Shown here: one piece after another, positions 1-60,008 of the stretch | Layout: each line of letters starts with the position of its first letter | Numbering within the stretch: position 1 is the stretch's first letter | Assembly (NCBI GenBank): GCA_017481565.1 | Contig: JAFUOZ010000041.1 | Coordinates: 12,351-76,350 of the forward strand | Reading direction: 5' to 3' | DNA from: Oscillospiraceae bacterium | Lineage (GTDB): Bacteria > Bacillota > Clostridia > Oscillospirales > Ruminococcaceae | DNA length: 64,000 nucleotides | Position numbers and translations under genes: made by a program | The notes under the pieces: generated by a model | Seen by the model: the letters and a program-made list of their open reading frames with translations, nothing else | Databases searched by the model: none | What the model was told of the DNA's origin: nothing

Positions 1-942
1 TCCAATTTCTCCAATGAGATCATGATAAACAGAATTAATTCTGACCTTGCAAACGATCTAGGAAACTTGGTTTCAAGAACTGTTGCTATGGCTGAAAAGT
101 ATTTCGGAGGAACATTGCCTTCCGAAAGACAGTCCGATCCTGTTGATGATGAGCTTATCAATATGGCAAAGGCTCTCAGAGAGACTGTTGCCGCAGATGT
201 TGAGGAGGCTCAGCTTTCAAACGCCCTTGCAGAGATATTCAAGGTGATCTCCCGTGCAAACAAGTACATTGACGAAACAGCTCCCTGGGTGCTTGCAAAG
301 GACGAAAGCAACAAGGCAAGACTTGCAACTGTTCTTTATAATCTTCTTGAGGCTGTAAGAATATCCACATCACTTCTTTCCGCATTTATGCCTACTACAA
401 TGCCTGAGGTATGGAGACAGATAGGTGCTTCCGAAGAGGATGTTTCCTATGAAAATGCAGGAAAGTTCGGTGTACTTCCTGAAAATGTCACAGTAACAAA
501 GGGTGATGTTCTGTTCCCCAGAATCGACGTTGAGAAGGAGATAGACGCTCTCAATGAAATGATAAAGTCTTCTCAGCCTGCAGAGGACGAGGACAAGGCT
601 AATCTTGTACCCATTTCTGAAACCATCACTATTGATGACTTTGCAAAGGTTGACTTAAGAGTTGCAGAGGTCATTGAGTGCGAAAAGGTCAAGAAGGCAA
701 AGAAGCTTCTTAAGCTGCAGCTGAATGACGGTTTCGGTACAAGACAGGTAGTTTCGGGAATTGCAAAGTGGTATGCTCCCGAGGACCTTATCGGAAAGAA
801 GGTCATTGTTGTAGCAAATCTCGCACCTGCAAAGCTTTGCGGTGAGGAGAGCGCAGGCATGATCGTTGCTGCTGATGTAGGAGAGGACGCAAGAGTTATC
901 TTTGTTGATAAGGATATCCCCAACGGCAGCAAGCTCAGATAA
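1..942 (+). CDS. metG: methionine--tRNA ligase, C-terminal portion (5' end lies upstream of the window)
   Basis: Frame 1 is open from base 1 (SNFSNEIMINR...), so the ATG at 22 is internal. Contains DLANDLGNLVSR (anticodon-binding domain) and a C-terminal Trbp111/EMAP-type tRNA-binding OB fold (DLRVAEV..KLLKLQL..RQVVSGIAKWY..GKKVIVVANLAPAKLCGEESAGM). Confidence 0.9.
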   Translation, partial: SNFSNEIMINRINSDLANDLGNLVSRTVAMAEKYFGGTLPSERQSDPVDDELINMAKALRETVAADVEEAQLSNALAEIFKVISRANKYIDETAPWVLAKDESNKARLATVLYNLLEAVRISTSLLSAFMPTTMPEVWRQIGASEEDVSYENAGKFGVLPENVTVTKGDVLFPRIDVEKEIDALNEMIKSSQPAEDEDKANLVPISETITIDDFAKVDLRVAEVIECEKVKKAKKLLKLQLNDGFGTRQVVSGIAKWYAPEDLIGKKVIVVANLAPAKLCGEESAGMIVAADVGEDARVIFVDKDIPNGSKLR

Positions 943-967
943 TTATCAATGCGCAATTCGTAATTGA
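940..967 (+). repeat. short run of YAATKCG heptads beginning on the metG stop codon
   Basis: TAATTAT CAATGCG CAATTCG TAATTGA. Same heptad unit as the long array at 59275-59530 (opposite strand there). Confidence 0.5.
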
Positions 968-16540: not shown

Positions 16541-16554
16541 TTTAGGTGATGATT

Positions 16555-18588
16555 ATGGATATCAATTCTCCCGTTGGCTCGCTTGGCGGAGTGGGCAAAA
16601 AAAGAGCTGAGCTTTATAATAAGCTGGGTATATATACTCTGGCTGATCTTGTATATTATTTCCCTAAGAGATATAATGATTACAGCTGTCCTGTGTCTAT
16701 AGACGAGGCACAGATCAACGAGCATGCAGTAATATCGGCGGTGGTCACGAAAAAAATGCCTGCCGCAAGAATACGTCAGGGACTTGTACTCTATAAGCTG
16801 GTAGCGGCTGATGAAAAGGACAGTGTTACAATAAGCTTTTACAACAACAGATTTGTTTATGATAAGCTTTTTGAGGGTACGGAATATTTATTCAGCGGCA
16901 AGATAACAGGGGGCTTTACCCGAAAGGAAATGAACAGTCCTCAGGTAATATCGGCAGATGAAAGCTGTCTTTTCAGACCTGTTTATCATCTTACCGAGGG
17001 GATAACGGTAAATATGCTTACCGCAAACATCGAGACAGCGTTAAAATGCGTAGGCGATGATTTTCCCGATCATATCCCCGACCATATAAGAAAGAAATAT
17101 TCCCTTTGTACCTTGGGATATGCGCTTCATAATATACATTTTCCCGAAAGTGATCACGGTCTGGAGCTGGCAAGGCGCAGGCTTGGTTTTGATGAGCTTA
17201 TTCAGCTGCAGCTTGGAATGCTCATGCTGAAAAGCAGAAACCGCAGAAGCACAGGCTATGTAATGAAAAAATACGACCTGAACGAATATTATTCGGCGCT
17301 TCCCTTTGAGCCTACAGGCGCACAGAAAAGAGCCTGTGAGGATATTGCGGCGGATATGTCAAGGGATTTTCCCATGAACAGACTTGTTCAGGGCGATGTA
17401 GGCTCAGGCAAGACTGCAGTTGCTGCCGCTGCCTGCTGGCTTGCAGTTAAAAACGGAGTTCAGGCTGCGCTTATGGCTCCGACGGAAATTCTTGCAAGAC
17501 AGCATTATGCAACGCTCAGTGGATTTCTTGAGCCTATGGGCATAAAGGTAGGCTGTCTTACTGGAGCAATGACTGTAAAGCAGAAAAACGAGCTTAAAGC
17601 AAGGCTTGCAAGCGGCGAGCTTGATGTTGTAACAGGTACTCATGCACTGATATCGCAATCAACAGAGTTCAAGGCACTGGGTCTTGTTATTACAGATGAG
17701 CAGCATCGTTTCGGAGTAAATCAGCGGAAGGCTTTTGCAGGCAAGGGGGAAAGTCCCCACAAGCTGGTAATGTCTGCTACGCCTATCCCAAGAACGCTTG
17801 GACTTATCATATACGGTGATCTGGATATATCCATACTTAATGAGCTTCCTAAGGGCAGACAGCCTGTTGAGACTCATGCTGTAACAGGTAAGCTCCGTGA
17901 CCGTGCCTTAGGATATGTAAAGAAGCATCTTGACGAGGGCAGACAGGGCTATATAGTATGTCCTCTGGTTGAGGACAGCGAGGTAAGCGAAGCTCTTGCA
18001 GTGACCTCATACAAGGATAAGCTTGAAAAGGGGATACTTGCGGATTATAATATCGGTCTGCTCCACGGTCAGATGAATGCCGCCGAAAAGGATAAGGTAA
18101 TGGCAGAATTCAAAGCAGGGGATATACAGCTGCTTGTCTGTACTACTGTTGTGGAGGTAGGCGTTGATGTTCCCAATGCTGCGGTAATGATGATAGAAAA
18201 TTCCGATCGGTTCGGTCTTTCACAGCTTCATCAGCTGAGAGGACTAGTGGGCAGAGGACAGTTCAAAAGCACCTGTATACTGCTTACCGATAATCTTACC
18301 GAGGAAACAAGGGAACGTCTTAAAATAATGTCCTCTACCAATGACGGCTTTAAAATATCCGAGGAGGATCTGAAAATGAGAGGCGCAGGAGATTTCTTCG
18401 GTGAAAAACAGCACGGACTTCCTCCCATGAAAATAGCTGATATCATCGGTGATCGTGAGCTTCTTGCGCAGGCACAGAGTGCCGCAAGGGAGCTTCATGA
18501 GGAAAGCTCCGACCTTGAAAAATATCCTCTGCTTAAGGAAAATGTTGAAAAGATGTTCTCCAAAAATGCTGAGGACGGGATGAATTGA
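16555..18588 (+). CDS. recG: ATP-dependent DNA helicase RecG
   Basis: LGGVGKKRAELYNKLGI, Walker A GDVGSGKT, DEQHRFG, and the C-terminal helicase domain. ATG 16555 follows AGGTGA by 8 nt (the track ORF opens at GTG 16546). Confidence 0.93.
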   Translation: MDINSPVGSLGGVGKKRAELYNKLGIYTLADLVYYFPKRYNDYSCPVSIDEAQINEHAVISAVVTKKMPAARIRQGLVLYKLVAADEKDSVTISFYNNRFVYDKLFEGTEYLFSGKITGGFTRKEMNSPQVISADESCLFRPVYHLTEGITVNMLTANIETALKCVGDDFPDHIPDHIRKKYSLCTLGYALHNIHFPESDHGLELARRRLGFDELIQLQLGMLMLKSRNRRSTGYVMKKYDLNEYYSALPFEPTGAQKRACEDIAADMSRDFPMNRLVQGDVGSGKTAVAAAACWLAVKNGVQAALMAPTEILARQHYATLSGFLEPMGIKVGCLTGAMTVKQKNELKARLASGELDVVTGTHALISQSTEFKALGLVITDEQHRFGVNQRKAFAGKGESPHKLVMSATPIPRTLGLIIYGDLDISILNELPKGRQPVETHAVTGKLRDRALGYVKKHLDEGRQGYIVCPLVEDSEVSEALAVTSYKDKLEKGILADYNIGLLHGQMNAAEKDKVMAEFKAGDIQLLVCTTVVEVGVDVPNAAVMMIENSDRFGLSQLHQLRGLVGRGQFKSTCILLTDNLTEETRERLKIMSSTNDGFKISEEDLKMRGAGDFFGEKQHGLPPMKIADIIGDRELLAQAQSAARELHEESSDLEKYPLLKENVEKMFSKNAEDGMN

Positions 18589-18591
18589 TAA

Positions 18592-18616
18592 CAATTCGCA
18601 ATTTATAATGTACATT
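18592..18616 (+). repeat. short run of YAATKCG-like heptads 3 nt after the recG stop
   Basis: CAATTCG CAATTTA TAATGTA CATT. Confidence 0.4.
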
Positions 18617-27294: not shown

Positions 27295-27329
27295 CAAACT
27301 GCAATGCATAATGCGCAATTTCCAATAAA
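27295..27329 (+). repeat. five degenerate YAATKCG-family heptads
   Basis: CAAACTG CAATGCA TAATGCG CAATTTC CAATAAA (CAAT/TAAT phased every 7 nt). Confidence 0.45.
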
Positions 27330-34530: not shown

Positions 34531-34660
34531 GTGATTATATGAGTTTATCTGAAAAAATAGAAAAAAACGGAAAAAGTTTAAGAAGTCTTTATAAATTCTA
34601 AAAAAGATATTGTATAATAGAGCGTTAAAAAATTGTATAATGTATAGTGTATATTAGAAT

Positions 34661-34700
34661 AATAGCGTATAGTTATTGATAATAGCATATAGTTATTGAA
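34661..34700 (+). promoter_or_regulatory. tandem 20-bp direct repeat upstream of the GH9-like gene (candidate operator)
   Basis: AATAGCGTATAGTTATTGAT / AATAGCATATAGTTATTGAA (18/20 identical), ending 36 nt before the ATG. Two ATTGTATAAT boxes lie just upstream. Confidence 0.45.
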
Positions 34701-49394: not shown

Positions 49395-50735
49395 ATGATA
49401 AGTAAAATTCTTATTGCCAACAGAGGCGAGATCGCTGTAAGAATAATCCGTGCCTGCCGTGAAATGGGTATAAAGACCGTTGCTGTCTATTCCACAGCCG
49501 ATAAGAATGCCCTGCACGCAAGGATCGCTGATGAGGCGGTCTGCATAGGCGGACCTGCCACAAAGGACAGCTATCTTAACATGAAGGCTGTTATTGCAGC
49601 TTGTGAGATAACGGGTGCAGAGGCTATTCACCCCGGTTTCGGTTTTCTTTCCGAAAATGCATCCTTTGCAAGAATGTGCGGAAAGTGCGGAATTATCTTT
49701 ATCGGTCCTTCTCCCGAATCTATAGAGATGCTGGGAGACAAGGCGGCGGCAAAGACAGCTATGAAGAATGCAGGGGTACCTGTTATCCCCGGGTCAGACG
49801 GTGCGGTGCGCTCAATGACCGATATCAGAAAAACAGCCGCTGAGATAGGCTTTCCTCTTATGATAAAGGCGTCGGCAGGCGGCGGCGGAAGAGGAATACG
49901 TCTTGTAAACAATGAAGATGAGCTGGAGGCTCAGGCTACTGCGGCAAAGCAGGAGGCTCTGAACTTTTTCGGCGATGACAGCATATATATGGAAAGGTTC
50001 ATCATTGACCCCAAGCACATCGAATTCCAAATTCTTGCAGACAAGTTCGGAAATGTGATACACCTGGGCGAGAGAGACTGTTCCATGCAGAGAAGAAATC
50101 AGAAGGTGCTGGAGGAAACTCCCTCCGCTGTCATGACGGAGGACCTGCGCCGCAGAATGGGCGCTGCCGCTGTTGCAGCCGCTAAGGTATGCGGATATCA
50201 CAATGCAGGTACCATTGAATTTTTGGTAGACAGTGAGCAGAACTTCTATTTCATGGAGATGAATACACGTATTCAGGTAGAACACCCTATCACCGAGCTT
50301 GTAACAGGTGTTGATCTGGTAAAGCAGCAGATAATGATCGCTGACGGAAAGCCTCTGCCCTATCATCAGGAGGATATCAGTTTAAGAGGTCATGCGATAG
50401 AGTGCCGTATCAATGCGGAAAGTCCCGAGGCAGGCTTCAGACCCAGCCCCGGAAAGATAACAGCGCTCCATACCCCCGGAGGTCCCGGAATAAGAATAGA
50501 CAGCTCTGCTTATCAGGGCTATACCATAACTCCCTACTATGACAGCATGATAGCAAAGCTTATTGCCTATGCGCCTACCCGTGAGGAAGCAATCGCAAAG
50601 ATGAAATGGGCGCTTGCTGAATTTATAGTTGAGGGCGTTGATACTAATATTGATTTTCAGCTCAGCCTTATCTGTGATCCCAATTTTGAAAAGGGCGATT
50701 ATGATATAGGCTATTTAGGCAGGAAAATGAAATAA
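49395..50735 (+). CDS. accC: biotin carboxylase subunit of acetyl-CoA carboxylase
   Basis: KILIANRGEIAVRIIRAC, GGGGRGIR, EMNTRIQVEHP. Confidence 0.96.
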   Translation: MISKILIANRGEIAVRIIRACREMGIKTVAVYSTADKNALHARIADEAVCIGGPATKDSYLNMKAVIAACEITGAEAIHPGFGFLSENASFARMCGKCGIIFIGPSPESIEMLGDKAAAKTAMKNAGVPVIPGSDGAVRSMTDIRKTAAEIGFPLMIKASAGGGGRGIRLVNNEDELEAQATAAKQEALNFFGDDSIYMERFIIDPKHIEFQILADKFGNVIHLGERDCSMQRRNQKVLEETPSAVMTEDLRRRMGAAAVAAAKVCGYHNAGTIEFLVDSEQNFYFMEMNTRIQVEHPITELVTGVDLVKQQIMIADGKPLPYHQEDISLRGHAIECRINAESPEAGFRPSPGKITALHTPGGPGIRIDSSAYQGYTITPYYDSMIAKLIAYAPTREEAIAKMKWALAEFIVEGVDTNIDFQLSLICDPNFEKGDYDIGYLGRKMK

Positions 50736-50834
50736 ATTATATCAGAAATAAACCTTACATGTTTTATGAGTAAGTATGTGTGAGACGGGTATGCCCCCTG
50801 TCTCCGCAGGGCTTACTGTATGCAGGTGAATAAT

Positions 50835-51563
50835 ATGAAACGATGTCCCTTATGTTCGGGAAAGGTAAAGGACGGAATGTGTGTTGACTGCGGATATTCC
50901 ATTCCCGATGAAGACGAACTCAATGAAATTTCAAGCATATATAATACTGAGCCTGAGGAGGAGCCTGAGGAAAGGTATCCTCAGAAGGAATATATCCCCG
51001 AAAGCTATCAGCGTGAGGAAATGCCTGACAGAATGCCCTACGGCTATGCTGAGCCTTCGGAAAAGTATATCCCCAAGGTTGCGGTAATTCCCGACCCTGT
51101 GCAGAATAACGGGGTACATACGGGTAACCAAAGCGGTTACATACCTTATCAGCCGAACAGTACGGGGACAGGTGCGTCCATGGGCGGAGGTACGGGGTAT
51201 GTGCAAAGCGGAAGCAATCCTCAGGGATATGTGCAGAACGGATATAACGGAAATGTACAGAGCGGTTATAACGGCAATGTGCAGAACGGAAGTCCCATGA
51301 GCAAAACGGGCAGCACCAATTATGACCCTACTGCCAATTTTACACCCTATCAGAATGTTCCTGCGGCGAACAATAAAACCAATATTTTTTCAAATCTTAA
51401 AGCCTCGGATCTTAAATGGGGCGAGCTTCTTGCATCGTTCTTTATACCCTTTGTGGGATTTATTCTGGGAATAAAGAATCTTTCAAAATCAGGCGGAACA
51501 GACAAGGATAAGGCAATGGGAATTATTTGTCTCGGGCTTGCTGTTCTGGGATTGTTTTTATAA
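50835..51563 (+). CDS. zinc-ribbon / low-complexity / C-terminal TM protein (paralogue 1 of 4)
   Basis: MKRCPLCSGKVKDGMCVDCGYSIPDEDEL. Q/N/G/Y-rich repeats (GYVQSG, GYNGNVQ). C-terminal hydrophobic hairpin. AGGTGA 6 nt upstream of the ATG. Confidence 0.8.
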   Translation: MKRCPLCSGKVKDGMCVDCGYSIPDEDELNEISSIYNTEPEEEPEERYPQKEYIPESYQREEMPDRMPYGYAEPSEKYIPKVAVIPDPVQNNGVHTGNQSGYIPYQPNSTGTGASMGGGTGYVQSGSNPQGYVQNGYNGNVQSGYNGNVQNGSPMSKTGSTNYDPTANFTPYQNVPAANNKTNIFSNLKASDLKWGELLASFFIPFVGFILGIKNLSKSGGTDKDKAMGIICLGLAVLGLFL

Positions 51564-51568
51564 TACAA

Positions 51569-52111
51569 ATGAACGATATAGAAAAATGTCCTCTTTGCGG
51601 AGGACGCTCAAAAAGCGGAAAATGCCTGAGCTGCGGATATATCATTCCCGACAGCTCAGAGCTTGAATATATGACTAAGCTTGCAAGCGCAGAGCCTGAG
51701 GATTATCCTGAGGAGGAGGCTGCAAGAAATCTCTTTGAAGCAGATGTAAATGTAAAGGTGTATCATAACGATCTGCCCGATATCTGCGATAAAAATCAGA
51801 CAGACCCTTATCTGAAAAGAAAGACTGAATACAGGACAAAGCCGAAAAGCACTTATGTACACCCCGACAGAAAGCCGTTATTCAGGGAAAAGCTTGATAT
51901 GCTGCTTGAAAATAACCGTTTTATTTTTTATGGCGCATATATATTGTCAATGCTGCTTCCGCTGAGGATATATGTAATATTCATTCATATAATAATGCTT
52001 CTCTGGGCAGCTGTTTTCAGGGATAAAGCGGATTTTATGAGTGAAAATAAAATGTGGCTGATGTATGTGGGAGCGGTAATGGCTATTGTTCTTAAGCTTT
52101 CTATGATGTGA
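51569..52111 (+). CDS. zinc-ribbon membrane protein (paralogue 2 of 4)
   Basis: MNDIEKCPLCGGRSKSGKCLSCGYIIPDSSELEYMTKLASAEPEDYP. Two C-terminal TM helices. Starts 5 nt after the paralogue 1 stop. No SD. Confidence 0.8.
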   Translation: MNDIEKCPLCGGRSKSGKCLSCGYIIPDSSELEYMTKLASAEPEDYPEEEAARNLFEADVNVKVYHNDLPDICDKNQTDPYLKRKTEYRTKPKSTYVHPDRKPLFREKLDMLLENNRFIFYGAYILSMLLPLRIYVIFIHIIMLLWAAVFRDKADFMSENKMWLMYVGAVMAIVLKLSMM

Positions 52112-52126
52112 TGTGACTAAAATATC

Positions 52127-52747
52127 ATGAATGAAAAAACGAAATGTCCTCTGTGCGGAGGACGCTCAAAAAGCGGAATATGCTCCGAATGCGGATATAT
52201 CATTCCCGACAGTGAGGAGCTTGATTACGAAACAAGGCTTGCAAGCGCAGAGCCTGAGGATTATCCTCGTCAGGAGGCTATGCGCAATGTGCTTGCGGAG
52301 GAGAAGGTAAACGTAAAGGTCAGAAATGATTATATGCCCGATGTGCTTACTCCGCCGCCTCCGCCTGTACAGACTGTAAAAAAGCCTGCTGTCAATAAGC
52401 AGAGTTCTGTCAATAAGCAGAGTTCTGTCAATAATGTAAATAATGCTGCTCCGATGAAAAAAAGTGTTTATGTTCATCGGGGAGAAAGGCTCAGCTTAAT
52501 TGACAGGATAGATAATATGCTTTACAGAAATTCAAAAATATTTTATGGGATATATATTGCACTGATGCTTCTGCTTTCCGGTGAGGAATATATGGCAGCG
52601 GTACTTATTTCCCTGTTTTTATATATGCTTATAGGTATAAGATGCGATTTTTTCAGTACTAAAAAGACGATACTGCTGTATCTGACAGCTATACTGGCTA
52701 TCATCGTCAAATTGGGACTTGAAGAAATGTTCAGATACGGTTTTTAA
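52127..52747 (+). CDS. zinc-ribbon membrane protein (paralogue 3 of 4)
   Basis: MNEKTKCPLCGGRSKSGICSECGYIIPDSEELDYETRLASAEPEDYP. PPPPP/VNKQSS linker. Two TM helices. Confidence 0.8.
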   Translation: MNEKTKCPLCGGRSKSGICSECGYIIPDSEELDYETRLASAEPEDYPRQEAMRNVLAEEKVNVKVRNDYMPDVLTPPPPPVQTVKKPAVNKQSSVNKQSSVNNVNNAAPMKKSVYVHRGERLSLIDRIDNMLYRNSKIFYGIYIALMLLLSGEEYMAAVLISLFLYMLIGIRCDFFSTKKTILLYLTAILAIIVKLGLEEMFRYGF

Positions 52748-52751
52748 CGAT

Positions 52752-53330
52752 ATGAATGAAATACAAAAATGTCCCCTCTGTGGAGGAAAAACCATAAGCG
52801 GCTTATGTATGGAATGTGATTACGTCATTCCCGATGGTGATGAGCTTGAATATATGACCTTGCTTGCAAACACAGAGCCTGAGGATTATCCGACGGCAGA
52901 GGCGGCAAAAAACGAGCTTTTGTCCGCACCTGTAAAGGTGAAGGTGAAAACGGATTATATGCCTGATGTATATGAGGTGCCGCCGTCGGTTCAGCTGACA
53001 CCTGCAAATAATCCCCCTGCAAATAATAATATCAATAATATCAATAATACGGCAGTGCAGAAGAATGTCAATATGTATGTACCGCCTTCACAGCCTCAGC
53101 AGAAAACGGCTTTTGAAAAAATTTATGACTGGTGGTACGATCATTTTTATATCGGGTATATATTACTTCTTATATTGGCGGTCATTATGCCGTCAGCTGT
53201 TGATGTAGCTATCGGGGGAGCACTGCTTATTCCCGATTTTGAGGATGATGATCCCTTTAACCCTAACAAACTGAAAATAGGCGCTATACTGCTTATAATC
53301 GGTTTGCTTAAATTTCAGTTTCTGGATTAG
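52752..53330 (+). CDS. zinc-ribbon membrane protein (paralogue 4 of 4)
   Basis: MNEIQKCPLCGGKTISGLCMECDYVIPDGDELEYMTLLANTEPEDYP. N/P-rich linker. Two TM helices. Starts 4 nt after the paralogue 3 stop. Confidence 0.8.
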   Translation: MNEIQKCPLCGGKTISGLCMECDYVIPDGDELEYMTLLANTEPEDYPTAEAAKNELLSAPVKVKVKTDYMPDVYEVPPSVQLTPANNPPANNNINNINNTAVQKNVNMYVPPSQPQQKTAFEKIYDWWYDHFYIGYILLLILAVIMPSAVDVAIGGALLIPDFEDDDPFNPNKLKIGAILLIIGLLKFQFLD

Positions 53331-53351: not shown

Positions 53352-54242
53352 TTGTTAGAGGATCTTTTTAATGTGGTCACCACACGCTTTAACAGCGTTG
53401 TGAAGGACGATAAGGATAAAAAAGAAAGCAAAAGCACTGTTGATATTCCTAAGGATCTGTTTTTCAAATGTCCCCGATGCTCGTCGGTTGTTGTGTCGGA
53501 GGATCTGGACAATAATCTGGGAGTATGTCCCGACTGCGGTTATCATTCAAGAATATCCGCAGTGAGAAGGCTTGCTATGGTTGCAGATAAGGAAAGCTTT
53601 ATTGAATATGACAAGGATATGATAAGCAAGAATCCTATAGATTTCCCCGAATATGAGGAAAAACAGGCAAAGCTCAGGGAACAGACAGGTCTTAAGGACG
53701 CTGTTATCACGGGAGAATGTACAATAAGAGGCAGAAAATGCGTTATCGGTATCATGGATTCACGGTATATGATGGCATCTATGGGAAGTGTTGTGGGCGA
53801 AAAGCTTACAAGAGCCTTTGAAAAGGCTACCGAAAAGAGACTTCCTATCGTGCTGTTTACCGCTTCGGGCGGTGCAAGAATGCAGGAGGGTATGGTATCC
53901 CTTATGCAGATGGCAAAGACAAGCGGTGCGGCTGCAAGACATTCCGAGGCAGGCCTTTTATATATAACCGTTATGACCGATCCTACTACGGGCGGTGTTA
54001 CGGCTTCTTTTGCGTCTCTGGGCGATATCATCATCGCTGAGCCTAAGGTGCTTATCGGCTTTGCGGGCAGACGTGTTATCGAGGGAACTATCAAGCAGAG
54101 ACTTCCTGAGGATTTTCAGTCCGCTGAGTTTTTGCTGGAGCATGGCTTTGTTGATATGATAGTTGACAGAAAAAGCATGAGAAAAACCCTTTCTCATCTT
54201 ATCAGTCTTCATACCGATAATGTGGAGGTGAAGGACAGATGA
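53352..54242 (+). CDS. accD: acetyl-CoA carboxylase carboxyltransferase beta subunit (TTG start)
   Basis: (M)LEDLFN... matches the usual AccD N-terminus. Zn ribbon CPRC-x15-[15 protein letters not shown]. Confidence 0.93.
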
Positions 54243-55066
54243 GTATGAATAATATCACACCATGGAAAAAAATGGAGATAATCCGTCATAAGAATCGTCC
54301 TACCATAAGGGATTATCTTCCTATGATATTTGAAGATTTCTATGAGATGCACGGTGACCGTCTTTACGGCGATGACGGTGCGATAATAGGCGGAATAGGC
54401 AGGCTGAGAGGTATGCCTGTGACAATTATCGCTGAGGTAAAGGGCAGAGACCTTAACGAAAATAAGCAGTCCAATTTTGCCATGCCTCACCCTGAGGGCT
54501 ACAGAAAGGCGCTCAGGCTTGCAAAACAGGCTGAAAAGTTCAAACGACCTGTTATATGCTTTATAGATACTCCCGGCGCATTCTGCGGCATAGAGGCTGA
54601 GAAGAGGGGACAGGGAGAGGCTATTGCCCGAAACCTTTTTGAGTTTATGACCCTGAAAACTCCCGTTGTATCGGTGGTGCTGGGCGAGGGCGGCAGCGGC
54701 GGCGCACTGGCTCTTGGCGTATGCGATGAGCTTGGTATGCTTTCAAACTCGATCTATTCGGTAATTTCACCGAGAGGCTTTGCTTCTATACTCTGGAAGG
54801 ACGCATCAAGGGAGAAGGAAGCCTGCAATATCATGAAAATAACAGCCGAGGATCTGACTGAGCTTCAGATCTGTGACGCTATAATTGAGGAGTCGGAAGG
54901 GGGCGCTCACAACGACCCGATGATGACTGCCGAAAATATTGAAGAATTTTTGGTAAAAACGCTGAAAGAAAAAATGCAAATAGATATTGACGTTTTGCTA
55001 AATCAACGTTATACTAAATTTAGAAAAATCGGTGAGTTTGAGGAATCGGCTGCGGCTGAGGAATAA
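54239..55066 (+). CDS. accA: acetyl-CoA carboxylase carboxyltransferase alpha subunit
   Basis: Overlaps the accD stop (ATGA). [26 protein letters not shown]. Confidence 0.93.
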
Positions 55067-55531: not shown

Positions 55532-57397
55532 TTGAACAAGAAAACAATTATCAAGGCGGTATATGCCGTTATTATTGCGGCGGTGACATTCTTTCTTTCG
55601 TATTCACAGGAAATGTTTGAAGAGCCGCTTCTTAAGAAAACAGACAATATGCTTAAGGATGTGCTCTATCAGCAGGAGCTGCCTATAAGCCGTGATATAA
55701 AGATAATAGCGATAGATGATAAGACACTGGAAAAATACGGTCCTTTCGGTACGTGGTCAAGAAGTACTTATGCGGACCTTATAAATATACTTAATTCAAA
55801 CGAGGGGCTTGAACCTGCCGTTATCGGCTTTGATATAATGTTCTTCGGAAATATGGACGAGGAGGGCGACAGGCTCTTTGCGGAAACTGCGGAAAAGGCA
55901 GGAAATGTAGTGCTTTCCTCAAATATACTCTATAACGACTCAAAGATACTTACAGATGAAAACGGAAATGAATATATCGATACCATGTATATCGAAAACA
56001 TAGAATATCCCTATGAGGCGTTAAACAAGGCGGCTGAAAGCGGATTTGTAAATATCTCCGCAGACAATGACGGAGTTGTCCGCAGGATAATTCCTACGGT
56101 AACATTTAACGGGGAGACAAGGGACAGCTTCTCTAAGGTGATATATGAAAAATACTGTGCTTATCTTGGTGAGACACCCAATGAAATAATTACAGACAGA
56201 GACAACAGCATGACAGTGAGATTTACGGGCGCACCGGGAGATTACAGTGCAACCTCGCTTTGTGATGTGCTTGACGGTACTGCTGACCCCCGTAATTTTG
56301 CAGGGGCTGCAGTGCTTGTGGGAGCTTATGCGCAGGGTATGCAGGACGCACAGAGTGTTCCTACGTCTCATGAGCAGATGTACGGCGTTGAGATACACGC
56401 AAACGTTATTGAGGCTATGTATGAGGGAATCTTTCCTGTGCAGGCGGACAGGCTTGTCTGTGCCTTTATATCTGCTGTTATAGCGGCGCTGCTGTTTATA
56501 CTTATGAGCAATGTAAAGTTTGCGATAGTTACTGTGATAGCTGCTGCTGCTTTTGTGGGAGAGGTTTTTGCGGCGTATATGCTTTCGCAGAACAATGTGT
56601 TTGTTGACCTTGTTTATCTGCCGATCATGACCATAGTAAGCTATGTTGTTGTGGTAATTATGAATTACGTTGTTGAGCGTATCATAAGAAACAAGACCCT
56701 TAATGCATTCAAGAAATATGTTGACCCCAAGTTTATCAGGGATATGCAGAGAAGCGGCGGAGATTTTAAGATCGAGCTTGGCGGAGAAAGCAGGGAATGT
56801 GCGCTTCTGTTTGTTGACATCAGAGGCTTTACCGCTCTTTCGGAGTGTCTTACTCCAAAGGAGGTAGTACACGTACTGAATAAATACCTTAAGCTTACCA
56901 CTGATTCGGTAATAAATAACGGCGGTACGGTGGACAAGTTTGTAGGGGACTGTACCATGGCTATATTCAATGCTCCCTTTGACCTTGACGACTATGTATT
57001 CAAGGCTGTATGTGCAGGCTTTGATATTATTTCGGGAGATAAGGAATTCAATGAGCATATTGAAGAGGGACTTTCCGAAGAATCGGTAAGAAAGCTGAGA
57101 GAGCGTTGGGCAACGAGAACGGACAACGGCGTGGGTTTTGGTGTAGGAATACACTGCGGAGAGGCTGTTGTGGGAAATATCGGCTGTGATTTCCGTATGG
57201 ACTATACGGCGATAGGCGATACTGTAAATACAGCGGCAAGAATCGAAAGCGGAGCAAAGAAGGCGCAGCTTTGCATAAGCGGTGATGTATATGAGCTTGT
57301 GAAGGACAGAGTAGAGATAGACGGATATGAGGATAAGATGTTCAAGAATAAATCCGAGCCTGTAAGATGTTATTCGGTAGTCGGGGTTAAAAGGTAA
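55532..57397 (+). CDS. CHASE2-domain membrane sensor fused to a class III adenylate/guanylate cyclase domain
   Basis: N-terminal TM, ~300-aa extracytoplasmic region, 3 TM, then LLFVDIRGFTALSE, KFVGDCTMAIFNAP, GIHCGEAVVGNIG, DYTAIGDTVNTAARIES. TTG start after AAGGAG. Confidence 0.88.
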   Translation: MNKKTIIKAVYAVIIAAVTFFLSYSQEMFEEPLLKKTDNMLKDVLYQQELPISRDIKIIAIDDKTLEKYGPFGTWSRSTYADLINILNSNEGLEPAVIGFDIMFFGNMDEEGDRLFAETAEKAGNVVLSSNILYNDSKILTDENGNEYIDTMYIENIEYPYEALNKAAESGFVNISADNDGVVRRIIPTVTFNGETRDSFSKVIYEKYCAYLGETPNEIITDRDNSMTVRFTGAPGDYSATSLCDVLDGTADPRNFAGAAVLVGAYAQGMQDAQSVPTSHEQMYGVEIHANVIEAMYEGIFPVQADRLVCAFISAVIAALLFILMSNVKFAIVTVIAAAAFVGEVFAAYMLSQNNVFVDLVYLPIMTIVSYVVVVIMNYVVERIIRNKTLNAFKKYVDPKFIRDMQRSGGDFKIELGGESRECALLFVDIRGFTALSECLTPKEVVHVLNKYLKLTTDSVINNGGTVDKFVGDCTMAIFNAPFDLDDYVFKAVCAGFDIISGDKEFNEHIEEGLSEESVRKLRERWATRTDNGVGFGVGIHCGEAVVGNIGCDFRMDYTAIGDTVNTAARIESGAKKAQLCISGDVYELVKDRVEIDGYEDKMFKNKSEPVRCYSVVGVKR

Positions 57398-57402
57398 ATA
57401 TG

Positions 57403-57437
57403 CAATGCGCAATTCGTAATGTGTAATGCGCAATTAA
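57403..57437 (+). repeat. five YAATKCG heptads starting 6 nt after the cyclase stop codon
   Basis: CAATGCG CAATTCG TAATGTG TAATGCG CAATTAA. Confidence 0.6.
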
Positions 57438-58528: not shown

Positions 58529-59131
58529 ATGAAGAAAAAAACATCGGGCAAGGGATTCAATATCGGCTTTATAAGCTATAATTCCCCTGTGATACTTACC
58601 TTTACGCTGATCTCGCTGGCGGCACTGATACTTAATACGCTTACAGGCGGCTGGAGCAATATGAAGCTGTTTTCGGTGTATCGTGCGCCGCTGACAGATC
58701 CTCTGTTTTATCTGAGGCTGTTTACTCATTCGCTGGGTCATGCGGATCTGAGCCATTTTGTAAGTAATTTTACGCTGATACTGCTTATAGGACCTATCCT
58801 TGAAGAAAAATACGGCGGAAAGCCTCTTGTGCTTACAATGGTGCTTACTGCCTTTGTGACAGGACTTATCAATGTTATATTCTTTCCTCAGACTGCACTT
58901 CTGGGCGCAAGCGGTATCGCATTCATGCTGATAATCCTAGCATCGTTTACCAATACCGAGGATAAGAAAATACCGCTGACCTTTATTCTGGTTGCGTTTA
59001 TCTATCTGGGAGGAGAGATAATAAACGGTATCATCTCTGCCGATAATATCTCACAGATGGGACATATTATCGGTGGCTGCTGCGGTGCTGCGGCAGGTCA
59101 TCTTTTCGGTATCAAGAAGCTGAAGATATAA
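58529..59131 (+). CDS. rhomboid-family intramembrane serine protease
   Basis: Six TM helices. GASGIAF (GxSG) and MGHIIGG (catalytic His helix). Confidence 0.85.
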   Translation: MKKKTSGKGFNIGFISYNSPVILTFTLISLAALILNTLTGGWSNMKLFSVYRAPLTDPLFYLRLFTHSLGHADLSHFVSNFTLILLIGPILEEKYGGKPLVLTMVLTAFVTGLINVIFFPQTALLGASGIAFMLIILASFTNTEDKKIPLTFILVAFIYLGGEIINGIISADNISQMGHIIGGCCGAAAGHLFGIKKLKI

Positions 59132-59184
59132 TTCGCAATGCGTAAAGCGTAATTCGCAATGCGCAATGCGTAATGCGCAATTAA
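59129..59184 (+). repeat. eight YAATKCG heptads beginning exactly on the rhomboid stop codon
   Basis: TAATTCG CAATGCG TAAAGCG TAATTCG CAATGCG CAATGCG TAATGCG CAATTAA. Confidence 0.75.
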
Positions 59185-59220
59185 TTATTATTATTTTTCC
59201 TTTAGAGCTATAATTTACAA

Positions 59221-59252
59221 AAAGGCTTTGCACATCAGAATGCAAAGCCTTT
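59221..59252. terminator. terminator hairpin between the two heptad blocks
   Basis: AAAGGCTTTGCA-CATCAGAA-TGCAAAGCCTTT. Confidence 0.75.
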
Positions 59253-59274
59253 TGCAGATATATTGACTATTTTA

Positions 59275-59530
59275 AATTGCGAATTGCGAATTGTGAATTG
59301 CGAATTGCGAATTGTGAATTGCGAATTGCGAATTGTGAATTGCGAATTGCGAATTGCGAATTGCGAATTGCGAATTGCGAATTGTGAATTGCGAATTGTG
59401 AATTGCGAATTGCGAATTGCGCATTGTGAATTGCGCATTGCGAATTGCGAATTGCGAATTGCGAATTGCGAATTGTGAATTGCGCATTGCGAATTGCGCA
59501 TTGCGAATTGCGCATTGCGAATTGTGCATT
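59275..59530 (-). repeat. tandem heptanucleotide satellite, about 36 units (AATTGCG on the + strand = CGCAATT on the - strand)
   Basis: 256 bp of uninterrupted 7-bp periodicity. Units are AATTGCG (majority), AATTGTG, CATTGCG and CATTGTG. There are no spacers, so it is not CRISPR. It generates three to four artefactual NSQFAIR-type ORFs in the track. Confidence 0.95.
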
Positions 59531-59536
59531 ACATAA

Positions 59537-59570
59537 ACAGCCGCCGACTGTATGCATAGTCGGCGGCTGT
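59537..59570. terminator. terminator hairpin downstream of the 130-aa gene
   Basis: 13-bp stem ACAGCCGCCGACT / AGTCGGCGGCTGT, 8-nt loop. Confidence 0.8.
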
Positions 59571-59615
59571 TCATGCTTTTATAGGAGGTTAAAATGAAAA
59601 GAGATTATTTAAAGA

Positions 59616-60008
59616 TCAGAGAATGGAATCTATCCATTTGATAGCGTCTTCTTCGGTGCGGAAGGTGCCTTCCTGAATTGCGGCATTGGATTTTTTTCCG
59701 TGCTCCTTAGCCTGTGCACCTGTGATAAATGACGCAAAATTGACAAATGCCATAGCCTTGCAGTTTGAAGCCTCCAGCTTTTTATGAAGCTCGATAAGCT
59801 CGGTGCTTACATCGGGAGTAACGGGCGGCATTTTGCTTATATCGCATATATACGCCCAGCCTGTTGCCTTATAGGGTGCAGAAAGTGAAACCAGCTTGTC
59901 AGTAAGCCATTTTACCTCTGCTACGTTGGTAGCCGCATCGGCTGATGATTTGATGTATTTCTTTCCGGGGTATGTGGTTATAGTCTGTGCACCGTTATTA
60001 TAGGTCAT
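59616..60008 (-). CDS. hypothetical 130-aa cytoplasmic protein
   Basis: Clean ORF. AGGAGCGAGAT upstream of the ATG. No motif recognised. Confidence 0.65.
   Translation of the reverse strand: MTYNNGAQTITTYPGKKYIKSSADAATNVAEVKWLTDKLVSLSAPYKATGWAYICDISKMPPVTPDVSTELIELHKKLEASNCKAMAFVNFASFITGAQAKEHGKKSNAAIQEGTFRTEEDAIKWIDSIL

What the first reader, a model, noticed from the sequence alone, without database searches (positions are those of the whole stretch)
59275..59530. 36-unit AATTGCG heptanucleotide satellite between two convergent genes
This is 256 bp of strict 7-bp periodicity: AATTGCG with AATTGTG, CATTGCG and CATTGTG variants. It has no spacers and no coding potential that makes sense; all frames give NSQFAIR-type repeats. 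It lies after the terminator hairpin of the 130-aa gene, so it is neither promoter-proximal nor obviously transcribed.

Three heptads span 21 bp, which is two helical turns. Arrays of contiguous heptads are the binding substrate of cooperative ribbon-helix-helix proteins such as the omega repressor / ParB of pSM19035-type plasmids. By analogy, this could be a protein-loading or centromere-like array, a nucleoid-structuring site, or simply a slippage-prone VNTR.
Basis: partly seen in the sequence, partly recalled or inferred. Interest (0 to 1): 0.65.

Follow-up and report, generated by a model that had tools for sequence, protein, structure and literature searches.

The report
Expanded heptanucleotide repeat behind a gene
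The 36-copy AATTGCG array is real, but it is an over-grown copy of a short 7-base repeat that sits just after stop codons in this gut bacterium and many other, mostly ruminant-gut, bacteria, so it is a variable microsatellite of a known but unexplained kind and not a plasmid-style centromere.

Summary
Window 59275-59526 holds 36 gap-free heptads (24 AATTGCG, 7 AATTGTG, 4 CATTGCG, 1 CATTGTG) between a rhomboid gene (+) and a 130-aa gene (-).

It is not an assembly artefact. An independent k141 contig carries the identical array, and the longest internal repeat is 61 nt.

It is not unique. Short arrays of the same unit, read as CGYAATK in the sense of the upstream gene, start 0-9 nt after four other stop codons in the window. 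One of them (about 7.6 units) faces the big array as an inverted partner.

A sister lineage (about 89% nucleotide identity) has 6 units at the orthologous site instead of 36, and 2 instead of 7.6. The position is conserved and the copy number is not.

The same mixed-unit family is found mainly in ruminant-gut Oscillospirales, Selenomonadales and Treponema. It is biased to the sense strand just after stop codons (21 vs 4) and to convergent inverted pairs (9 vs 0).

This anatomy matches the known dispersed heptamer repeats of Xanthomonas, Nostoc and Beggiatoaceae, whose function is unknown.

A control heptamer is equally widespread across phyla, so cross-phylum presence alone means little. The omega/ParB centromere analogy fails every feature I could test.

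Verdict: a slippage-expanded VNTR allele of a 3'-UTR heptamer family, and a new member of a known kind.

The parts
59275..59530 (-). Large heptad array: 36 full units plus CATT. It reads (CGCAATT/CACAATT/CGCAATG)n in the sense of the 130-aa gene and AATTGCG on the + strand.
   Evidence: The unit string is aabaabaabaaaaaababaaadacaaaabacacacb. An identical array is present in the independent contig L135.
59127..59182 (+). Small inverted partner array of about 7.6 units (CGYAATK) in the sense of the rhomboid gene. Its first unit contains the rhomboid TAA stop codon.
   Evidence: In predicted RNA folds it pairs with the far end of the large array. The sister lineage L430 has only 2 units here.
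59219..59253 (.). Bidirectional terminator-like hairpin: stem 59224-59232 / 59241-59249, with an A-run before it and a T-run after it. It lies between the two arrays.
   Evidence: Sequence read. The hairpin is kept in both MFE folds and is conserved in L430.
59536..59571 (.). 16-bp GC-rich hairpin between the 130-aa gene and the large array. It scores as terminator-like on the + strand only; the U-tail on the - strand is weak.
   Evidence: The stem is conserved and the loop differs in L430.
58529..59131 (+). Rhomboid-domain membrane protein gene (200 aa). The small array lies in its 3' flank.
   Evidence: PF01694, E = 8.5e-17.
59616..60008 (-). 130-aa conserved hypothetical gene. The large array lies 82 nt downstream of its stop codon.
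   Evidence: no family or structure match. Orthologues were found.
57401..57435 (+). 5-unit array of the same family, 3 nt after the stop codon of the CHASE2-adenylate cyclase gene (55532..57397), in sense orientation.
945..965 (+). 2-3-unit array of the same family just after the stop codon of the + strand gene 22..942. It shares the 18-mer CAATGCGCAATTCGTAAT with the 57401 site.
18597..18610 (+). Weak 2-unit member (CGCAATT TATAATG), 8 nt after the stop codon of gene 16546..18588 and before a terminator hairpin.
27300..27320 (+). 3-unit member (TGCAATG CATAATG CGCAATT) in a 519-bp gap between two - strand genes. This is the one site in the window that does not follow the sense-after-stop rule.

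Best explanation
The array is a hyper-expanded allele of a short heptanucleotide simple-sequence repeat. It belongs to a dispersed family, (CGYAATK)n in the sense of the upstream gene. Members usually have 3-5 units and occupy the stretch between a stop codon and the transcription terminator, often as convergent inverted pairs.

At this locus both members of a pair were already present in the common ancestor with a sister lineage. In the window's lineage the arm behind the 130-aa gene grew from a handful of units to 36. The likely mechanism is slipped-strand mispairing and unequal exchange in steps of 7, 14 and 21 bp.

Shown: the array is real; the family exists and has a positional and strand rule; position is conserved while copy number varies.

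Inferred:
- Slippage is the mechanism of growth.
- The array is transcribed as part of a 3' UTR, because the better terminator for each gene is the distal hairpin.
- The 36-copy state itself has no dedicated function.

Why this particular heptamer is kept at so many gene ends is not explained by slippage alone. That is covered by the first rival.
For: Reality of the array:
- An identical 36-unit array sits in an independent assembly from another sample, and its longest internal exact repeat is 61 nt, below k = 141.
- Short-read contigs break inside the array.

Family in the window:
- Sense-oriented arrays start 0-9 nt after the stop codons at 942, 18588, 57397 and 59131.

Copy-number change at a fixed position:
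- L430, about 89% identical over recJ-p130-rhomboid, has 6 units against 36 and 2 against about 7.6. Its intergenic gap is 237 nt against 484 nt.
- A second strain differs in unit order.
- p130 orthologues at 78% identity or less have a plain terminator and no heptads.

Higher-order sub-repeats (aab)3 and (ac)3 are present.

Family elsewhere:
- The 18-mer shared by two window sites gives 64 loci. They are mostly ruminant-gut Ruminococcus, Acutalibacteraceae, Oscillospiraceae, Selenomonadaceae/Quinella and Treponema.
- 21 arrays lie within 40 nt after a stop codon in sense orientation against 4 in antisense (p = 0.0009). That is 21 of 47 against 8.7% expected.
- An inverted partner lies downstream in 9 of 49 arrays and upstream in 0 of 49.
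- L267 repeats the architecture: a 4-unit array facing a partner of at least 30 units.

[quoted passage not shown] Heptamers are the over-represented class of long SSRs in prokaryotes (Mrazek 2007 as summarised in PMC4679880).
Against: - Slippage alone does not explain why the same unit recurs at many unrelated loci and in several phyla of one habitat.
- It does not explain why variation is concentrated at two unit positions (Y and K).
- It does not explain why the orientation follows transcription.
- No transcript data are available, so the 3'-UTR status is inferred.
- The copy number of 6 in L430 comes from a k = 31 short-read contig. The path is unambiguous (longest repeat about 15 nt), but heterogeneity within the sample cannot be excluded.
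- Gene calls in related loci were made with a crude longest-ORF rule.
Confidence: 0.68

Rival explanations
1. RNA-level cis element. (CGYAAUK)n in the 3' UTR would be a landing pad for a single-strand RNA-binding protein with a 7-nt footprint or period. Candidates are a cold-shock-domain protein, which binds one protein per heptamer, or a HutP-like ring that reads triplets spaced 7 nt apart. Binding would compete with pairing to the inverted partner or with terminator folding, and so tune termination, read-through or mRNA decay. The 36-unit array would then act as a high-capacity decoy, or would simply be an over-grown site.
For: - The orientation follows the sense strand of the upstream gene (21 vs 4), and arrays abut stop codons but lie before terminators.
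- Variation is concentrated at positions 3 (C/T) and 7 (T/G), while CG-AAT stays constant across taxa.
- The orthologous groEL 3' arrays in L127 and L293 keep 4 units, and all 4 base differences between them fall at those positions.
- The family recurs in several phyla.
- CspB binding one protein per heptamer is cited as a candidate mechanism for TAACTGA repeats in PMC4679880.
- HutP's UAG-N4 periodicity comes from my own knowledge and was not tested.
Against: - No binding protein has been identified and there are no expression data.
- Copy number changes six-fold between close lineages with no sign of constraint.
- More distant orthologues lack the arrays altogether.
- Pure (AATTGCG)n and (CGTAATT)n arrays in other phyla and in phage contigs show no strand bias: 14 vs 10, and 36 vs 41.
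- The Y/K pattern could also come from C-to-T mutation plus conversion between units.
Confidence: 0.2
2. DNA-level protein-loading array. This is a centromere-like or nucleoid-structuring site bound cooperatively by a ribbon-helix-helix or ParB-like protein, as with the omega heptads of pSM19035. It is the first reader's favoured analogy.
For: Contiguous heptads occur in direct and inverted orientation, and three units span 21 bp, with an (aab)3 21-bp sub-repeat. Nothing else supports it.
Against: - The unit does not match the omega heptad WATCACW.
- The locus lies among chromosomal housekeeping genes (accA, acpP, recJ, relA/spoT) with no ParA, ParB or RHH gene in the genes read within about 5 kb.
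- Family members are scattered at gene 3' ends with transcription-linked polarity.
- The sister lineage manages with 6 units.
Confidence: 0.04
3. Relic of a mobile element. The inverted heptad arrays would be the terminal inverted repeats of a MITE-like element. Alternatively the heptads would be stacked excision footprints (a 4-bp AATT target duplication plus 3 nt), which would account for spread between loci and phyla.
For: - Arrays often come as inverted pairs enclosing 10-200 bp.
- Identical 18-mers occur at unlinked loci.
- The distribution follows habitat rather than lineage.
Against: - The sequence between paired arrays is not conserved between loci. It is simply the local terminator.
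- No transposase is associated.
- Most arrays are single.
- The exact 18-mer is absent from the viral contig collection.
Confidence: 0.05
4. Assembly artefact, or a coding repeat in which a heptapeptide-repeat protein is read through the array.
For: All six frames are open across the array, and mechanical ORFs of 71-100 aa run through it. Short-read assemblers do break here.
Against: - Two independent assemblies agree unit for unit, and no 141-mer is repeated.
- The ORFs start inside a hairpin with no ribosome-binding site.
- Changes in 7-nt steps between strains would shift the reading frame.
Confidence: 0.02

Closest known systems
Dispersed GGGAATC / GGGGAYT heptamer repeats of Xanthomonas and Nostoc (Rehm et al. 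2015, PMC4692102)
   Same: - One heptamer unit is dispersed over many intergenic sites.
- The typical length is about 4 units, with rare long arrays (up to 26).
- Convergent inverted pairs are frequent.
[quoted passage not shown]
- Length and sequence vary between close species.
- Function is unknown.
   Different: The unit here has no G-tracts, so the G-quadruplex rationale does not apply. The host is a low-GC gut Clostridium relative. At 36 units the array is longer than the maxima reported there.
TAACTGA heptamer repeats of Beggiatoaceae, Cyanobacteria and Bacteroidetes (MacGregor 2015, PMC4679880)
   Same: - A specific heptamer recurs as short direct repeats at many intergenic sites.
- It is shared by unrelated phyla with no evident transfer mechanism.
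- Occasional arrays are very long (up to 43 copies).
- Contigs often end inside the arrays.
- Close strains differ by indels in 7-nt steps.
   Different: In 'Maribeggiatoa' the repeats lie just upstream of start codons in forward orientation, suggesting a translational role. Here they lie just downstream of stop codons.
Long simple sequence repeats of prokaryotes, heptanucleotide class (Mrazek et al. 2007, as summarised in PMC4679880 and PMC4692102), including the STRR heptamers of heterocystous cyanobacteria
   Same: These are head-to-tail 7-nt units without spacers. They are intergenic, over-represented relative to other unit lengths, and ascribed to polymerase slippage.
   Different: This is a general class without a positional rule. 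The STRR units (such as CCCCAGT, from my own knowledge) and their hosts differ.
Omega (RHH) repressor / ParB heptad arrays of pSM19035-family plasmids
   Same: Contiguous 7-bp units occur in direct and inverted orientation.
   Different: The unit sequence, the genomic context (chromosome, gene 3' ends) and the transcription-linked polarity all differ, and no cognate genes are nearby. See the membership test.
REP/BIME extragenic palindromes of enterobacteria
   Same: Dispersed elements in 3' UTRs and between convergent genes, often in inverted pairs that can fold as hairpins.
   Different: REP units are imperfect palindromes of about 35 nt, not tandem heptamers. No RAYT-type transposase link was seen here.

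Membership tests
Prokaryotic long simple sequence repeat (heptanucleotide class) | Head-to-tail copies of a 5-11 nt unit without spacers, longer than chance allows | tested here: met
   36 units, 0% indels, TRF score 416. Pattern count is 49 against 9.9 +/- 3.0 in shuffles.
Prokaryotic long simple sequence repeat (heptanucleotide class) | Copy-number polymorphism in whole-unit steps between strains or lineages | tested here: met
   6 units against 36, and 2 against about 7.6, at orthologous sites in L430. The unit order differs in a second strain.
Prokaryotic long simple sequence repeat (heptanucleotide class) | Non-coding location | tested here: met
   The array lies between convergent genes. 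The ORFs through it are mechanical only.
Dispersed heptamer repeat families (Xanthomonas/Nostoc type, PMC4692102) | Same unit at many intergenic loci, typically about 4 units | tested here: met
   There are 5 further sites in the 64-kb window. Arrays of 3-5 units dominate in the 64 related loci.
Dispersed heptamer repeat families (Xanthomonas/Nostoc type, PMC4692102) | [quoted passage not shown] | tested here: met
   21 sense against 4 antisense, and 21 of 47 against 8.7% expected. Inverted partner downstream in 9 and upstream in 0.
Dispersed heptamer repeat families (Xanthomonas/Nostoc type, PMC4692102) | G-tracts able to form G-quadruplexes | tested here: not met
   The units AATTGCG and CGYAATK contain no run of two or more G.
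Dispersed heptamer repeat families (Xanthomonas/Nostoc type, PMC4692102) | Repeats are transcribed | not testable with these tools
   No transcriptome data are available. Terminator geometry suggests the array lies inside the transcribed 3' region.
Omega/ParB heptad operator-centromere (pSM19035 type) | Heptad consensus WATCACW | tested here: not met
   The units are AATTGCG, AATTGTG and CATTGCG. The consensus is recalled from my own knowledge.
Omega/ParB heptad operator-centromere (pSM19035 type) | Arrays lie upstream of promoters of partition or copy-control genes on a plasmid, next to genes for the RHH protein and a ParA ATPase | tested here: not met
   The array lies downstream of two convergent genes. 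The neighbours are accA, acpP, a CHASE2 cyclase, a TIM-barrel protein, rhomboid, recJ and relA/spoT on a 186-kb scaffold.
Omega/ParB heptad operator-centromere (pSM19035 type) | Cooperative binding of duplex heptads by a ribbon-helix-helix dimer | not testable with these tools
   This needs EMSA, footprinting or ChIP.
REP/BIME | Unit is an imperfect palindrome of about 20-40 nt | tested here: not met
   The 7-nt unit is not self-complementary. On the - strand, hairpins arise only between oppositely oriented arrays. On the + strand G-U pairs also let the large array fold on itself.
CRISPR array | Repeats separated by unique spacers | tested here: not met
   There are no spacers; the units are contiguous.
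Phase-variation contingency SSR | Repeat lies inside a reading frame or between promoter elements, so that unit changes switch a gene | tested here: not met
   The array lies 82 nt beyond the stop codon of one gene and 143 nt beyond the stop codon of the other.
Any Rfam RNA family | Match at or above the gathering score | tested here: not met
   The only hit is a sub-threshold MIR1023 match (23 bits against 90) caused by the inverted arrays.

The most novel reading that the evidence does not exclude
(CGYAAUK)n would be a genuine 3'-UTR cis-regulatory element shared, by transfer or convergence, among several bacterial phyla of the ruminant gut. A conserved single-strand RNA-binding protein with a 7-nt footprint would read it, and it would control terminator folding or mRNA fate. 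Arrays of 30-36 units, as in this window and in L267, would act as high-capacity decoys for that protein.
Probability: 0.15. Interest if true: 0.7.

Novelty: new member of a known kind. Interest (0 to 1): 0.32.

Why it matters
Heptanucleotide repeats are the most over-represented class of long simple repeats in prokaryotes. Nearly twenty years after that was noticed, neither their origin nor their function is known.

This locus adds three things:
- A clear case where the position is conserved while copy number changes six-fold between close lineages.
- A previously undescribed family found mainly in ruminant-gut Oscillospirales, Selenomonadales and Treponema, with a clear sense-strand, after-stop-codon rule. 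That rule gives a concrete handle for RNA pull-downs and reporter assays.
- A practical point: such arrays break short-read assemblies of gut metagenomes, and they could serve as strain markers.

There is no evidence for a centromere or a protein-loading site.

Tried and rejected
1. Cross-phylum presence as evidence of a shared system. However, the reversed control heptamer (GCGTTAA)3 did the same, so this argument was dropped. Those loci also carry many other heptamer arrays.

2. A strand rule for the pure (AATTGCG)n arrays of other phyla. The bias near stop codons was only 14 vs 10. The rule therefore holds for the mainly ruminant-gut mixed-unit family, not for the heptamer in general.

3. 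A phage link. The family's 18-mer is absent from viral contigs. The degenerate pattern finds 106 viral loci, but they are mostly pure CGTAATT arrays in higher-GC contigs with no strand bias.

4. Orthologous comparison through GTDB genomes. The nearest p130 homologues (75% or less) come from genomes whose RecJ is only 39% identical and which lack the rhomboid neighbour, so they were uninformative. The useful relative came from an exact-protein look-up of a 98% homologue.

5. Function of the 130-aa neighbour. There is no Pfam, NCBIfam or PDB sequence match, so there is no lead to a binding protein.

6. Rfam. Nothing was found.

7. Literature searches for the unit sequence, or for heptamer repeats in rumen bacteria, found nothing specific.

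8. The stop-cassette idea, that TAA in CGTAATK units supplies stops in all three frames. It fits some small arrays, but the large array contains almost no TAA, so it was not pursued.

Full report
**What is there.**

Window 59275-59526 is a gap-free run of 36 heptads followed by a partial CATT. The units are 24 AATTGCG, 7 AATTGTG, 4 CATTGCG and 1 CATTGTG. Tandem Repeats Finder gives period 7, 35.7 copies, no indels and score 416, which is by far the strongest repeat in the 64-kb window.

The array lies between a rhomboid-domain gene (58529..59131, +) and a 130-aa gene of unknown family (59616..60008, -).

- Starting in the rhomboid stop codon there is a second array of about 7.6 units (59127-59182) of the same heptad in the opposite orientation: CGCAATG, CGTAATT, CGTAATG and so on.
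- Between the two arrays lies a hairpin (stem 59224-59232 / 59241-59249) flanked by an A-run and a T-run. It looks like a bidirectional terminator.
- The hairpin next to the 130-aa gene (59536-59571) scores as a terminator only on the + strand. On the strand of the 130-aa gene its U-tail is poor.
- For each gene, then, the better terminator is the distal hairpin. The large array may well be transcribed from one or both sides. This is an inference, since no transcript data exist.
- If one RNA spans both arrays, the small array pairs with the far end of the large one over about 55 nt. That follows automatically from inverted repeats and is not evidence of function.

**Not an artefact.**

The window matches an ENA metagenome scaffold of 186,660 bp. 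An independent k141 contig from another sample carries the same 36 units in the same order. The longest exact repeat inside the array is 61 nt, so 141-mers traverse it unambiguously. Contigs built with short k-mers end a few units into either array. A second strain, whose 130-aa protein is identical but whose flanks differ slightly, has a different unit order at the start of the array.

**A family, not a singleton.**

In the window, short arrays of the same unit occur after the stop codons at 942, 18588, 57397 and 59131. They lie 0-9 nt downstream, always read CGYAATK in the sense of the upstream gene, and are followed by that gene's terminator hairpin. The large array obeys the same polarity: on the strand of the 130-aa gene it reads (CGCAATT)n. 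One small array (27300-27320) does not fit the rule.

Two of the window's sites share the 18-mer CAATGCGCAATTCGTAAT. Scanning one genome per species for that 18-mer gave 64 loci.

- About 49 of the 64 are true arrays of three or more units.
- Most come from ruminant or other herbivore gut genomes: Ruminococcus, Acutalibacteraceae, Oscillospiraceae, other Clostridia, Selenomonadaceae/Quinella and Treponema, with single Prevotella, Muribaculaceae and Thermoguttaceae contigs.
- Several genomes contribute three to five loci each.

The first unit is often AATAATT or TATAATT, with the gene's TAA stop in phase. Away from the selected core, the in-phase units keep CG-AAT and vary mainly at position 3 (C/T) and position 7 (T/G).

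**Positional statistics.**

These use a crude longest-ORF gene call in the low-GC loci.

- 21 arrays start within 40 nt downstream of a stop codon in sense orientation, against 4 in antisense (p = 0.0009). After removing obvious orthologous duplicates the count is 19 vs 4 (p = 0.003).
- 21 of 47 intergenic arrays fall in that class, against 8.7% expected for random intergenic placement.
- An inverted partner array lies within 300 nt downstream in 9 of 49 cases and upstream in none.
- One goat-caecum Oscillospiraceae genome (L267) repeats the whole architecture of the window. A 4-unit sense array after a gene end is followed by a 24-nt spacer and then an inverted array of at least 30 units. There it lies 49 nt upstream of the next gene.

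**Evolution at this locus.**

The closest homologue of the 130-aa protein outside the window's own lineage (98% identical) sits on a contig (L430). That contig is about 89% identical in nucleotides across recJ, the 130-aa gene and the rhomboid gene. Both hairpins and both arrays are present at the same positions.

- The large array has only 6 units there: GGCAATT CACAATT CGCAATT CACAATT CGCAATT CGCAATT.
- The small array has 2 units.
- The intergenic distance is 237 nt instead of 484 nt.

More distant orthologues (78% or less) are followed by an ordinary terminator with no heptads. One of them (L127) carries a different heptamer, AATGAAT, with an inverted partner at that spot.

Inside the window's array, the left end is (AATTGCG AATTGCG AATTGTG)x3 and the right end is (AATTGCG CATTGCG)x3. 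These are the marks of multi-unit duplication.

Together this shows a conserved site whose copy number is free to change. The 36-unit state is a lineage-specific expansion.

**How special is the heptamer?**

Three perfect AATTGCG units occur in at least 120 loci from Nostocales, Anaerolineae, Acidobacteriota, Planctomycetota, candidate phyla and others. Those loci are full of other heptamer arrays as well.

Cross-phylum occurrence of a given heptamer array is therefore ordinary in a 596-Gb collection and cannot be used as evidence for a shared system.

In the cross-phylum AATTGCG set the arrays also tend to abut stop codons rather than start codons, but without clear strand bias (14 vs 10). 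Phage contigs carry mostly pure CGTAATT arrays with no bias.

**Comparison with what is known.**

Heptanucleotides are the over-represented class of long simple sequence repeats in prokaryotes, and polymerase slippage has been proposed as the cause (Mrazek et al. 2007, as summarised in PMC4679880 and PMC4692102).

The best-described dispersed families are these:
- GGGAATC in Xanthomonas and GGGGAYT in Nostoc. They mostly have 4 units (range 2-26) and form 70-75 convergent inverted pairs. [quoted passage not shown] They are mostly transcribed and vary in length between species (PMC4692102).
- TAACTGA in Beggiatoaceae, Cyanobacteria and Bacteroidetes. It is shared by unrelated phyla, reaches up to 43 copies, and shows indels in 7-nt steps. 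Contigs end in the repeats, and cold-shock-domain proteins, which bind one per heptamer, are discussed as possible readers (PMC4679880).

The anatomy found here matches the Xanthomonas type point for point, except that the unit cannot form G-quadruplexes. I therefore file the array as a new member of this known, functionally unexplained kind.

**The omega/ParB analogy.**

- The unit does not match the omega heptad (consensus recalled from my own knowledge).
- The array lies downstream of genes, not upstream of promoters.
- The context is chromosomal housekeeping DNA (accA, acpP, recJ, relA/spoT) with no partition genes among the neighbours read.
- The family's polarity follows transcription, which a duplex-DNA site would not need.
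- Binding itself cannot be tested here.
- AATT tracts spaced 7 bp apart fall at three different helical phases every 21 bp, so no planar intrinsic bend is expected. This is reasoning, not a computation.

**Mechanism, with the steps marked.**

Shown:
- The array is a real, perfect-period array.
- It belongs to a dispersed family with a sense-strand, after-stop-codon rule and convergent pairing.
- The site is conserved, and copy number differs six-fold between lineages about 89% identical.
- Higher-order sub-repeats are present.

Inferred:
- Growth was by slipped-strand mispairing and unequal exchange.
- The array is transcribed as a 3' UTR.
- The expanded length has no dedicated function.

Open:
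- Why this unit is kept at so many gene ends.

The leading functional rival is an RNA-level element read by a protein with a 7-nt footprint, with terminator or hairpin competition as the output. I give it about 0.2. The strand rule and the restricted Y/K variation support it. The free copy number and the absence of arrays in slightly more distant orthologues count against it.

Noticed in passing
window 50820-53330: Four consecutive, abutting or overlapping + strand ORFs (50820..51563, 51527..52111, 52127..52747, 52719..53330) lie between ORF 49395..50735 and the two ORFs upstream of acpP (53352..54242 and the accA-like 54239..55066). They contain in-frame tandem repeats: 24 bp x2.8 at 51225-51290, a perfect 18 bp x2.6 at 52389-52434, and 9 bp x2.8 at 53025-53049. 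This may be one low-complexity protein gene broken by frameshifts or assembly errors.
   Followed up: no
window 59616-60008 (-): The 130-aa protein has no Pfam, NCBIfam or PDB sequence match. Yet it is 73-75% identical in genomes whose neighbouring RecJ is only 38-39% identical (L121, L122, L124). It is either unusually conserved or horizontally mobile.
   Followed up: partly
L127 6450-6560: At the 3' flank of the 130-aa orthologue in a related Oscillospiraceae MAG there is a different heptamer array, (AATGAAT)n. It is followed by a terminator hairpin and inverted ATTCATT units, and the contig ends there. The same spot seems prone to heptamer arrays of different sequence.
   Followed up: no
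L266 6953-6987 and 7795-7829; L323 1650-1684: In Selenomonadaceae the same heptads, in AATTRCG orientation, appear to lie inside the coding sequence of a lipoprotein-like signal peptide. My own reading of the reverse strand gives MKKILLYALLITNCALLFVGC after a GGAGG ribosome-binding site. So the family is not strictly non-coding.
   Followed up: partly
L118 6660-6790; L047 7800-7928: In two spirochaete MAGs, long pure arrays begin directly after a promoter-like TTGACA-N17-(C/T)ATAAT motif. There the array would form the 5' end of a transcript.
   Followed up: no
L127 1915-1949 and L293 1338-1370: Orthologous arrays follow a gene whose product ends ...PAGGMY (GroEL-like tail, my reading). Both have 4 units starting in the TGA-TAATG stop region, and all 4 base differences between them fall at the Y and K positions. 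The adjacent terminator differs at 2 of about 40 positions.
   Followed up: partly
window 59127-59530: The C/T unit variants in both arrays are C-to-T changes when written on the + strand: CGC to CGT in the small array and GCG to GTG in the large one. G-U pairs therefore preserve the predicted long duplex in + strand RNA (-200 kcal/mol, z = -10.9) better than in - strand RNA (-149 kcal/mol, z = -7.0). This could reflect strand-biased deamination rather than selection.
   Followed up: partly
window 34634-34699: AT-rich 20-bp direct repeats (ATAGCGTATAGTTATTGATA-like, 2-2.8 copies) lie next to TGTATAA repeats. Whether this stretch is intergenic was not checked, and they are unexplained.
   Followed up: no
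L140-L259 (control scan): The control heptamer (GCGTTAA)n has its own lineage-specific hot spots, with several loci each from Puia, Luteitalea, Chitinophagaceae and an uncultured gammaproteobacterium. This suggests that each lineage favours its own heptamer families.
   Followed up: no
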